Below, piece by piece: positions 9,131-9,150 of a stretch of DNA of 13,522 nucleotides. The stretch is from a virus. The first letter of the stretch is position 1; each line of letters starts with the position of its first letter. The notes under the pieces are model-generated. The model made no database searches. It had not been told where the DNA came from and saw only the letters and a program-made list of their open reading frames with translations. A program made the position numbers and the translations under genes. Location of the stretch: the UHGV virus genome UHGV-0292061. One strand, 5' to 3'.

Positions 9131-9150
9131 CCGCGACGCTCCCGCCCCGT
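9131..9150. other. cos: cos site (cosN), variant cohesive-end sequence
   Basis: Minus strand reads ACG-GGGCGGGAGCGT-CGCGG, versus remembered lambda ACG-GGGCGGCGACCT-CGCGG; flanks conserved, 4 of 12 core positions differ. The 12-nt core is at 9136-9147. Confidence 0.55.

What the first reader, a model, noticed from the sequence alone, without database searches (positions are those of the whole stretch)
9131..9150. cos site with a variant 12-nt cohesive-end core
About 190 bp upstream of the Nu1-like gene the minus strand reads ACG-GGGCGGGAGCGT-CGCGG. The flanks match what I recall of lambda, but the core differs at 4 of 12 positions (lambda GGGCGGCGACCT). If these are the true nick sites, the cohesive ends are not lambda-compatible, which bears on cosmid packaging and terminase specificity.
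Basis: partly seen in the sequence, partly recalled or inferred. Interest (0 to 1): 0.55.

Follow-up and report, generated by a model that had tools for sequence, protein, structure and literature searches.

The report
Lambda-type cos site, known natural variant
This is the DNA-packaging cut site (cos) of a lambda-like E. coli prophage. Its 12-base sticky end differs from lambda's at four positions, in the half of the site already known to vary in nature. Two published phage genomes already begin with the same sequence, so the finding is correct but ordinary.

Summary
The sequence is there. The minus strand at 9150..9131 reads ACG-GGGCGGGAGCGT-CGCGG. It matches lambda's cosN 20-mer at 16 of 20 positions and differs from lambda's 12-base end at positions 7, 8, 9 and 11.

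It is the only such match in the window (expected by chance 0.016). It lies 184 bp upstream of the small-terminase gene. Lambda's cosQ heptamer GGGTCCT lies upstream of it, one bp nearer to the cut site than in lambda.

GenBank records of phage cdtI and phage Tritos are opened exactly at this site. Tritos forms plaques. Both share about 99% of this packaging region with the window.

The exact 20-mer occurs in more than 120 viral contigs, and the cos region matches at least partly in 2185 of 5426 complete E. coli genomes.

The Feiss laboratory has described natural variation in bp 7-12 of cosN, with conserved bp 1-6, CG flanks and cosQ. They found that such changes do not affect cleavage.

Packaging specificity lies elsewhere. 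The same cosN is joined to at least three different cosB/small-terminase modules.

The small terminase is a DUF1441 protein, not a Nu1 homologue. The large terminase is 24% identical to lambda gpA.

The nick positions are inferred by homology. I found no end-mapping data for this 12-mer.

Verdict: real, correctly read, already known, low interest.

The parts
9170..9176 (-). cosQ heptamer GGGTCCT, the packaging-termination signal, at bp -29..-23 relative to the first base of the cohesive end
   Evidence: exact match to lambda's GGGTCCT, which lies at -30..-24 in lambda. It is conserved in cdtI, Tritos, mEp460, mEp213, VT1-Sakai, Kp4865-4 and Hafnia yong2. cosQ's role and conservation are from PMC4669245.
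9131..9150 (-). cosN region as reported: ACG | GGGCGGGAGCGT | CGCGG
   Evidence: The flanks are identical to lambda's. The CG dinucleotides next to both nick sites are described as highly conserved.
9136..9147 (-). Inferred 12-nt 5' cohesive end GGGCGGGAGCGT. The top-strand nick is inferred between 9148 and 9147, and the bottom-strand nick between 9136 and 9135.
   Evidence: The cdtI record (AB285204) and the Tritos record (OV696610) start at this base and end at ...CCACG. Twelve bp separate the conserved CG flanks. The nick positions are inferred by homology and were not mapped here.
9115..9130 (-). I2-like spacer AAAAAGGCTAGTTTTT (bp 18-33), a poly-dA/poly-dT segment between cosN and cosB
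   Evidence: conserved across the whole DUF1441-TerS phage set. Lambda's I2 is an AT-rich segment with poly-dA and poly-dT tracts. DNA shared with phi458 ends at about bp 40.
8964..9107 (-). cosB candidate region (bp 41-184), the class-specific DNA between the shared cosN/I2 and the TerS start codon
   Evidence: the window and phi458 are 99.1% identical from bp -1118 to +40. They then share no DNA similarity until bp 829; this segment falls into classes that track the TerS N-terminus.
9090..9108 (-). CCATGGCGGCGGCAACATG (bp 40-58), at the position of lambda R3; a candidate primary TerS binding site
   Evidence: relatives carry a class-specific trinucleotide-repeat-like element at the same position (CATCATCATCAT, CATCACCAC, CCACCATCATC). 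Lambda R3 is at bp 50-65. Assignment is by position only.
9072..9084 (-). IHF consensus match TAATTTATTGATA (reverse of WATCAANNNNTTR), bp 64-76
   Evidence: the only consensus match within -100..+260. An ATTGAT core lies at the same distance in two other classes that share this 20-mer, and mEp213 and Kp4865-4 have TTGAT there. It sits where lambda has I1, between R3 and R2.
9045..9054 (-). Direct repeat copy 1, TTTTCACCTG (bp 94-103); candidate accessory TerS site
   Evidence: a two-copy repeat found by a k-mer scan. The same scan recovers lambda R3, R2 and R1 as a positive control.
8968..8977 (-). Direct repeat copy 2, TTTTCACCTG (bp 171-180), 77 bp from copy 1 and just before the TerS ATG
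   Evidence: An AT-rich GYAATTWATTGA element is also repeated with the same 77-bp spacing (bp 63 and bp 140).
8424..8963 (-). Small terminase subunit (179 aa), DUF1441/phrog_141 type
   Evidence: PF07278, E = 6.6e-44; phrog_141 'terminase small subunit', E = 6.1e-64. It is 99.4% identical to the cdtI, Tritos and HannyBb TerS. No BLASTP similarity to lambda Nu1.
6316..8415 (-). Large terminase subunit (699 aa), gpA family; the enzyme inferred to nick cosN
   Evidence: GpA_ATPase (E = 4.9e-81) plus GpA_nuclease (E = 3.8e-86). It is 24% identical to lambda gpA over 627 aa and 99.7% identical to cdtI TerL.

Best explanation
This is the functional cos site of a lambda-like (gpA-terminase) temperate phage of E. 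coli, from the cdtI/Tritos group.

Inferred mechanism:
- The small terminase (DUF1441 type) binds the class-specific cosB between bp 41 and 184, probably with IHF bending the DNA at bp 64-76.
- This positions the gpA-type large terminase on cosN.
- The large terminase makes two nicks 12 bp apart, next to the conserved CG dinucleotides.
- The result is virion DNA with 5' single-stranded ends GGGCGGGAGCGT.
- cosQ (GGGTCCT, 22 bp upstream of the top-strand nick) is used when packaging terminates at the next cos.

[quoted passage not shown] That half is positioned by the anchored terminase and tolerates change. They are best read as neutral drift that always stays self-complementary between the two ends of one genome, not as a specificity determinant.

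Shown here: the sequence, its homology to lambda cos, its position, its conservation, the module structure, and the record termini.

Inferred: the nick positions, the binding sites in cosB and the use of IHF.
For: - Sequence and chance.
- Direct comparison with lambda. These show cosQ 7 of 7, both flanks, bp 1-6, and TerS start at bp 185 against 191 in lambda.
- Downstream genes on the minus strand: TerS, gpA-family TerL, a head-tail adaptor, a lambda-family portal and a ClpP-protease/capsid fusion.
- The cdtI and Tritos records are opened exactly at this site. Minus-strand position 4376 of the window, which is window 9147, aligns to base 1 of both records at 99.2% and 98.8% identity over 9 kb.
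- Tritos makes virions and plaques.
- The exact 20-mer is in more than 120 IMG/VR contigs. The region matches at least partly in 2185 of 5426 E. coli genomes.
- Relatives vary only in bp 7-12: lambda CGACCT, window GAGCGT, mEp460 GAGCGG, mEp213/LLS/Kp4865-4 CGCGCT, Fels-1 CAGCGG, PSTCR8lys CGTGCT.
- Literature: right-half variation is natural and does not measurably affect cleavage, while the flanks, left half and cosQ are conserved (PMC4669245).
- Cr-LKS3 is a phage whose TerS is related to this one. Its authors report 5'-extended ends with the same conserved flanks.
- Module swap at bp 40.
Against: - I could read no physical mapping of virion ends for this 12-mer. The two records may have been opened by analogy with lambda.
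- cosB does not show the lambda R3-I1-R2-R1 pattern. I found two direct repeats and no inverted copy.
- The terminase is very distant from lambda's (TerL 24% identical, TerS not detectably similar), so mechanism is transferred across a long distance.
- Relatives show 9- and 11-bp spacings between the flanks (Flotzy, VT1-Sakai), and Cr-LKS3 has 9-nt ends. The stagger is therefore not fixed in this family.
- Whether the prophage in this window is otherwise intact cannot be judged from 13.5 kb.
Confidence: 0.9

Rival explanations
1. It is the cos site, but the terminase cuts with a different stagger or at shifted positions. The true cohesive end would then not be the 12-mer GGGCGGGAGCGT.
For: The spacing between the conserved flanks is 11 bp in VT1-Sakai and 9 bp in Flotzy. 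Cr-LKS3, whose TerS is of the same family, is reported with a 9-nt end. No end mapping is available for this sequence.
Against: Here exactly 12 bp separate the two conserved CG dinucleotides, as in lambda. Those CG pairs flank the nicks in lambda and are the most conserved feature. Two deposited genomes use these ends. The Hafnia phage yong2 record is opened at the other nick, starting at CGCGG.
Confidence: 0.06
2. It is an intact-looking but unused cos in a defective prophage; a relic, not a working site.
For: Many E. coli lambdoid prophages are defective. Only 13.5 kb is visible. The late region upstream is mosaic relative to cdtI.
Against: All packaging and head ORFs in the window are full length with strong family matches. 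The arm from the cohesive end onward is 99.2% identical to phage cdtI over 9 kb. The cos right arm from bp 1 to the TerS start is nearly invariant across 45 loci of this class.
Confidence: 0.04
3. It is a chance resemblance to lambda cosN, or part of a coding sequence (ORF 9120..9335), with packaging by another route such as headful.
For: A 71-aa ORF overlaps the site, and similar ORFs are annotated as hypothetical proteins in some phage records.
Against: Chance expectation is 0.016. cosQ is present one bp nearer to the nick than in lambda. The terminase is of the gpA family. The sequence upstream of cosQ differs among phages that share the site, so no conserved protein spans it.
Confidence: 0.005

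Closest known systems
Bacteriophage lambda cos (cosQ-cosN-I2-cosB)
   Same: cosQ GGGTCCT is present. The ACG and CGCGG flanks and bp 1-6 (GGGCGG), 10 and 12 of the cohesive end are the same. There is an AT-rich spacer after cosN and an IHF-type site before the repeats. The small-terminase gene starts about 185-190 bp from the end, and a gpA-family large terminase follows.
   Different: Bp 7, 8, 9 and 11 differ. cosQ is 1 bp closer. cosB has no detectable similarity and no R3/inverted-R2/R1 triplet. TerS is DUF1441, not Nu1. TerL is only 24% identical.
cos of phages cdtI (AB285204) and Tritos (OV696610, prophage 3 of E. coli LF82)
   Same: The cosN 20-mer is identical. cosB is identical or nearly so, and TerS is 99.4% identical. 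Both records start at GGGCGGGAGCGT.
   Different: There is nothing of substance at cos. Tritos has a different sequence upstream of cosQ. The late region upstream of cos in the window matches other phages better than cdtI.
Natural cosN variants described by the Feiss laboratory (N15, phiD326, Gifsy-1; Vahanian et al. 2017)
   Same: The pattern is the same: variation confined to bp 7-12, with conserved CG flanks, left half and cosQ. N15 differs at bp 9 and 12, and Gifsy-1 at bp 8, 9 and 11.
   Different: This variant also changes bp 7, the base just right of the symmetry centre. I could not read the 2017 survey to see whether this exact 12-mer is listed.
cos of mEp460/phi458 and of mEp213/LLS (DUF1441-TerS lambdoid phages)
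   Same: The architecture is the same. phi458 has the identical 20-mer, and mEp460 differs only at bp 12. TerL is 87% identical in phi458 and 78% in mEp043. The LLS record annotates a 12-nt 5' end GGGCGGCGCGCT, which its authors inferred.
   Different: cosB, TerS (41% identity) and the first 30 or so residues of TerL form a different module.
Cylindrospermopsis phage Cr-LKS3 cos
   Same: The TerS family is related (38% identity). It has 5'-extended ends with the same first 4 bases and the same 2-bp flanks.
   Different: It has a 9-nt end, GGGCTCGCG, and a cyanobacterial host.

Membership tests
[quoted passage not shown] | cosN: 12 bp between conserved 5'-CG and CG-3' dinucleotides, with the left half GGGCGG conserved | tested here: met
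   CG|GGGCGGGAGCGT|CG. Bp 1-6 are identical to lambda, and 8 of 12 positions are identical overall.
[quoted passage not shown] | cosQ heptamer GGGTCCT about 23-30 bp upstream of the top-strand nick | tested here: met
   exact heptamer at bp -29..-23 (window 9176..9170). Lambda has it at -30..-24.
[quoted passage not shown] | Position immediately upstream of the small- and large-terminase genes, with a gpA-family TerL | tested here: met
   the TerS ATG is at bp 185, and TerL carries PF05876 plus PF20454.
[quoted passage not shown] | AT-rich I2 spacer with poly-dA/dT tracts between cosN and cosB | tested here: met
   AAAAAGGCTAGTTTTT at bp 18-33.
[quoted passage not shown] | Complex cosB: R3 - IHF site - inverted R2 - R1 | tested here: inconclusive
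   An IHF consensus lies at bp 64-76. Only two direct repeats (TTTTCACCTG at bp 94 and 171) and a distinct element at the R3 position were found, with no inverted copy. The same scan recovers lambda R3, R2 and R1.
[quoted passage not shown] | Virion DNA physically ends in complementary 12-nt 5' single strands at this site | not testable with these tools
   Only indirect evidence: the cdtI and Tritos records are opened here. No end-mapping data were readable.
Lambda Nu1-type small terminase (Pfam Phage_Nu1) | Detectable sequence homology to gpNu1 | tested here: not met
   the only Pfam hit is DUF1441. BLASTP against Nu1 gives E = 4.8. The short alignment falls on the helix-turn-helix-like N-terminal stretch but is not significant. 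A single-sequence structure model was too poor to test the fold.
gpA-family large terminase | GpA ATPase domain followed by the GpA endonuclease domain | tested here: met
   (E = 4.9e-81 and 3.8e-86); 24% identity to lambda gpA over 627 aa, E = 3e-22.

The most novel reading that the evidence does not exclude
The right-half variants of cosN (GAGCGT here; CGACCT, CGCGCT, CAGCGG and GAGCGG elsewhere) might define cohesive-end compatibility groups among co-resident lambdoid prophages and their satellites. A chromosome packaged from one cos type to another would then cyclize poorly. The variation would act as a selected barrier to cross-packaging or piracy, not as neutral drift.

A related point: satellite-like islands in other genomes carry a complete copy of this cos class, up to the TerS start codon. 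This fits the site being a target of packaging piracy.
Probability: 0.1. Interest if true: 0.4.

Novelty: already known. Interest (0 to 1): 0.12.

Why it matters
It matters little beyond annotation.

- It fixes the packaging origin and the expected virion ends of a very common E. coli prophage family. This helps when opening genome records, reading virome read-start data, or designing primers to test induction.
- It is a clean example of a known rule. In lambda-like phages the left half of the sticky end, the bases at the nicks and cosQ are held constant across very distant terminases. The right half drifts, and packaging specificity is carried by an exchangeable cosB/small-terminase module.
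- It does not point to a new packaging mechanism or a new terminase specificity.

Tried and rejected
- Full-text search for the exact 12-mer found only an unrelated mammalian promoter paper.
- The cdtI paper (PNAS 2007) and the cosN survey (Virology 2017) could not be opened by DOI, PMC id or PubMed id. Whether this 12-mer was mapped or listed there stays open.
- A loose collection scan that left the 12-mer free (cosQ plus flanks, 15 fixed bases) returned mostly chance hits. It was not usable as a census of variants.
- I looked for viral contigs ending at the site and found none. My pattern required the upstream ACG, so it would have missed contigs that start at the end.
- The repeat finder reported no direct repeats in cosB. 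A custom k-mer scan with lambda as positive control did find them.
- The promoter/terminator scan of 8900-9500 found nothing.
- A PDB sequence search found no relatives for TerS or TerL.
- The single-sequence AlphaFold model of TerS had mean pLDDT 48.6, with the N-terminal domain below 50. I ran no fold search, and the winged-helix question is left open. I ran no further search on building an alignment, because the TerS fold is not the point at issue.
- Gifsy-1 could not be retrieved from the phage collection with the Fels-1 cos as query. Its cosN is quoted from the literature only.
- The idea that the variant bases mark a TerL-level nicking specificity was considered and set aside. TerLs 87-100% identical use GAGCGT, while a 78% identical TerL uses CGCGCT. 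Published lambda genetics also find right-half changes neutral.

Full report
**Observation**

The minus strand of the window at 9150..9131 reads ACG GGGCGGGAGCGT CGCGG. The 20-mer is unique in the window, and no shuffle gave a match with up to three mismatches.

I fetched lambda itself (NC_001416). Its right end stops at ...CAGGTTACG and its left end starts GGGCGGCGACCTCGCGGG. The flanks are therefore identical.

Lambda's 20-mer has a single match with four or fewer mismatches in the window, at this site. Simulated sequences with the same dinucleotide frequencies gave 0.016 such matches per window.

**Surroundings**

Reading the minus strand downstream of the site, the ORFs are:
- a 179-aa DUF1441 protein (8963..8424) that PHROGs files as a small terminase subunit;
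- a 699-aa large terminase with the gpA ATPase and gpA nuclease domains (8415..6316);
- a head-tail adaptor;
- a lambda-family portal;
- a ClpP-protease/capsid fusion.

Upstream lie an Rz-type spanin, an endolysin, a holin and a DNA methylase. This is the late-region layout of a lambdoid phage, with the site where cos is expected.

Taking the first G of the 12-mer (window 9147) as bp 1, the small-terminase ATG is bp 185. Lambda's Nu1 starts at bp 191.

**Anatomy of the site**

- Lambda's cosQ heptamer GGGTCCT is present, exact, at bp -29..-23 (window 9176..9170). That is one base nearer to the nick than in lambda.
- After the conserved CGCGG comes AAAAAGGCTAGTTTTT (bp 18-33). It is comparable to lambda's AT-rich I2 spacer with its poly-dA and poly-dT tracts.
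- Bp 64-76 is the only match to the IHF consensus in the region (TAATTTATTGATA).
- A k-mer scan recovers lambda's R3, inverted R2 and R1 as a positive control. In the window it finds two direct copies of TTTTCACCTG, at bp 94-103 and 171-180. These are part of a two-copy module with 77-bp spacing. No inverted copy was found.
- At the position of lambda R3 the window has CCATGGCGGCGGCAACATG (bp 40-58). Relatives carry CATCATCAT-type elements at that position.

The binding sites in cosB are therefore candidates only.

**Related sequences**

The cos region hits phage records at high identity. Two of them break exactly at the site. The cdtI record ends ...CCTGCCACG and starts GGGCGGGAGCGTCGCGG, and so does the Tritos record.

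Minus-strand position 4376 of the window, which is window 9147, aligns to base 1 of both records. Identity is 99.2% (cdtI) and 98.8% (Tritos) over 9 kb.

Tritos is prophage 3 of E. coli LF82. It yields virions and has formed plaques.

The 301-bp cos region matches at least partly in 2185 of 5426 complete E. coli genomes.

**Variation among relatives**

With the sites lined up, cosQ (GGGTCCT, or a GGTACTCC form in Salmonella and Providencia phages), the ACG and CGCGG flanks and GGGCGG are constant. The right half varies:

| Phage | Right half (bp 7-12) |
|---|---|
| lambda | CGACCT |
| window, cdtI, Tritos, phi458 | GAGCGT |
| mEp460 | GAGCGG |
| mEp213, LLS, Kp4865-4 | CGCGCT |
| Fels-1 | CAGCGG |
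| Providencia PSTCR8lys | CGTGCT |

TerL identity to the window is 99.7% for cdtI, 87.4% for phi458, 78.4% for mEp043 and about 71% for Stx phages. The right half thus changes over modest TerL distances. It is also shared by phages with different small terminases.

**Where specificity lies**

Among 112 occurrences of the identical 20-mer, the downstream DNA falls into at least three classes. Each class has its own small-terminase N-terminus: MELLMSNVSG... (179 aa, the window type), MDRELKNLTLNISQLAALSG... (164 aa), and MDHELKNLVLNINQLAALSG... (163 aa).

A direct comparison with phi458 shows three zones:
- 99.1% DNA identity from bp -1118 to bp +40;
- no detectable DNA similarity from bp 41 to bp 828, a stretch covering cosB, terS and roughly the first 100 nt of terL;
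- 87.6% identity beyond that.

The first 50 TerL residues are 23/50 identical, against 45-50/50 in most blocks further on.

So cosQ-cosN-I2 and the body of TerL form one unit. cosB, TerS and the TerL N-terminus form an exchangeable module. This is the arrangement known from lambda and phage 21, where cosQ and cosN are identical and specificity lies in TerS-cosB.

**What is already known**

Feiss and co-workers define lambda-like phages by 12-base 5' extensions similar to lambda's. They make the following points (PMC4669245):
- Differences in bp 7-12 are common. N15 and phiD326 differ at bp 9 and 12, and Gifsy-1 at bp 8, 9 and 11.
- The CG pairs at the nicks, the left half and cosQ are conserved.
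- Right-half changes have no measurable effect on cos cleavage, because TerL is anchored by TerS on the adjacent cosB.
- Lambda and N15 terminases show no cosN preference.
- Chromosomes with a 2-nt end mismatch still cyclize, with about 4-fold lower yield.

A dedicated survey exists (Vahanian et al. 2017, cited), but I could not read it.

LLS and mEp213, which have DUF1441-type terminases like this window, are already described with the inferred end GGGCGGCGCGCT. Cr-LKS3, whose TerS is also related, is reported with 5'-extended 9-nt ends and the same flanks.

Identifying the site as cos is right.

'Nu1-like' is right by position only. The protein is DUF1441, and BLASTP against Nu1 gives E = 4.8. 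TerL is 24% identical to gpA.

'Not lambda-compatible' is reasonable. With ViennaRNA DNA parameters, the matched ends give -19.0 kcal/mol, and lambda paired with this end gives about -10 to -11 kcal/mol with only partial pairing. This is a calculation, not a measurement.

The link to terminase specificity does not hold. Both the published genetics and the module structure found here place specificity in cosB and TerS. A lambda extract would fail on this DNA because of cosB, not because of the four bases.

**Limits**

I found no readable physical mapping of ends for this 12-mer. The cdtI and Tritos records may have been opened by analogy with lambda.

Spacing between the conserved flanks is 11 bp in VT1-Sakai and 9 bp in Flotzy, so the stagger is not fixed across the family. 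Here it is 12 bp.

The TerS fold could not be tested. There are no PDB relatives by sequence, and the single-sequence model was poor.

**Verdict**

The feature is real and was correctly read. It belongs to a kind that is already described, and the same sequence is already deposited as the genome end of two phages. Interest is low.

Noticed in passing
L011 1-11983 (IMGVR_UViG_2574179916_000005); also L126, L100, L067: Some loci carry two copies of the exact cosN 20-mer in the same orientation.

In L011 the order is: an mEp460-type cos, TerS, a TerL cut down to its ATPase domain (331 aa), a P4-type integrase, Bro-N, DUF4222, an AAA_25 protein, SSB, and then a second cos. The second cos copies the window-type cos from cosQ through to the first bases of the TerS gene. 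After it come a protease/capsid fusion (57% identical to the window's) and a DUF1441 TerS-like protein whose C-terminal half is 49% identical to the window's.

This looks like a satellite island that has captured this cos class and sits inside a prophage morphogenesis gene. In L100 a similar integrase abuts a truncated protease gene.
   Followed up: partly
window 9107 and about 8319 (bp +40 and about bp +829 from the cohesive end): There are sharp mosaic boundaries against phi458. DNA is 99% identical up to bp 40, unalignable through cosB, terS and the first 100 or so nt of terL, then 88% identical. The packaging-specificity module appears to be exchanged as a cassette.
   Followed up: yes
L129 (VT1-Sakai) about 1545-1570; L132 (Flotzy) about 1545-1565; L131 1-20 (mEp460_4F5): Relatives have 11 bp (VT1-Sakai, GGGCGGGCGGG) or 9 bp (Flotzy, GGGCGGCGC) between the conserved ACG and CGCGG flanks. 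The mEp460_4F5 record starts CCACGGGGCGGGAGCGCGG, which is 3 bp short. These are either real length variants of the cohesive end or assembly errors in a GC-rich repeat.
   Followed up: no
window 9180-9200 (minus strand, bp -53..-33): GGTGATAATCACTCTCATTTT lies just upstream of cosQ and resembles lambda's GATGATAATCATTATCACTTT at the same place. It is also present in mEp213, VT1-Sakai, Kp4865-4 and Flotzy. Tritos and mEp460 have GCTGTCAGGCTG there instead. I do not know its function.
   Followed up: no
L136 1-40 and L256 211-300 (Hafnia phage yong2, MZ516527): This linear record starts at CGCGGGAAACGG, immediately after the position of the bottom-strand nick. It ends ...GGGTCCT...CCGAG GGGGCAGCGACA. 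It was therefore opened at the other nick of a homologous cos. Its 12-mer departs from GGGCGG even in the left half.
   Followed up: no
L146, L163, L174, L194, L144, L192 and others: The loose scan (cosQ, 14-18 nt, ACG, 12 free bases, CGCGG) mostly gave chance hits. It also gave recurrent related 12-mers such as GGCTGACGATGT, GGTTGGTTATGT and GGTGCGCAGAGG. These may be further cos families that share cosQ and the flanks.
   Followed up: no
window 9120-9335 (minus strand): A 71-aa TTG-start ORF runs across cosQ and cosN. Similar ORFs are annotated as hypothetical proteins in mEp460 and HannyBb, and it has a weak PHROG hit (phrog_17397). The DNA upstream of cosQ is not conserved among phages that share the site, so it is probably not a gene.
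   Followed up: partly
window 9415-9798 (minus strand): A 127-aa ORF lies between Rz and cos. It has an ORF11CD3 domain and PHROG hits to Rha-like and antirepressor regulators, covering only their C-terminal part. The cdtI record notes for its counterpart that the start codon is not identified. It may be a gene fragment or a moron at the end of the late operon.
   Followed up: no
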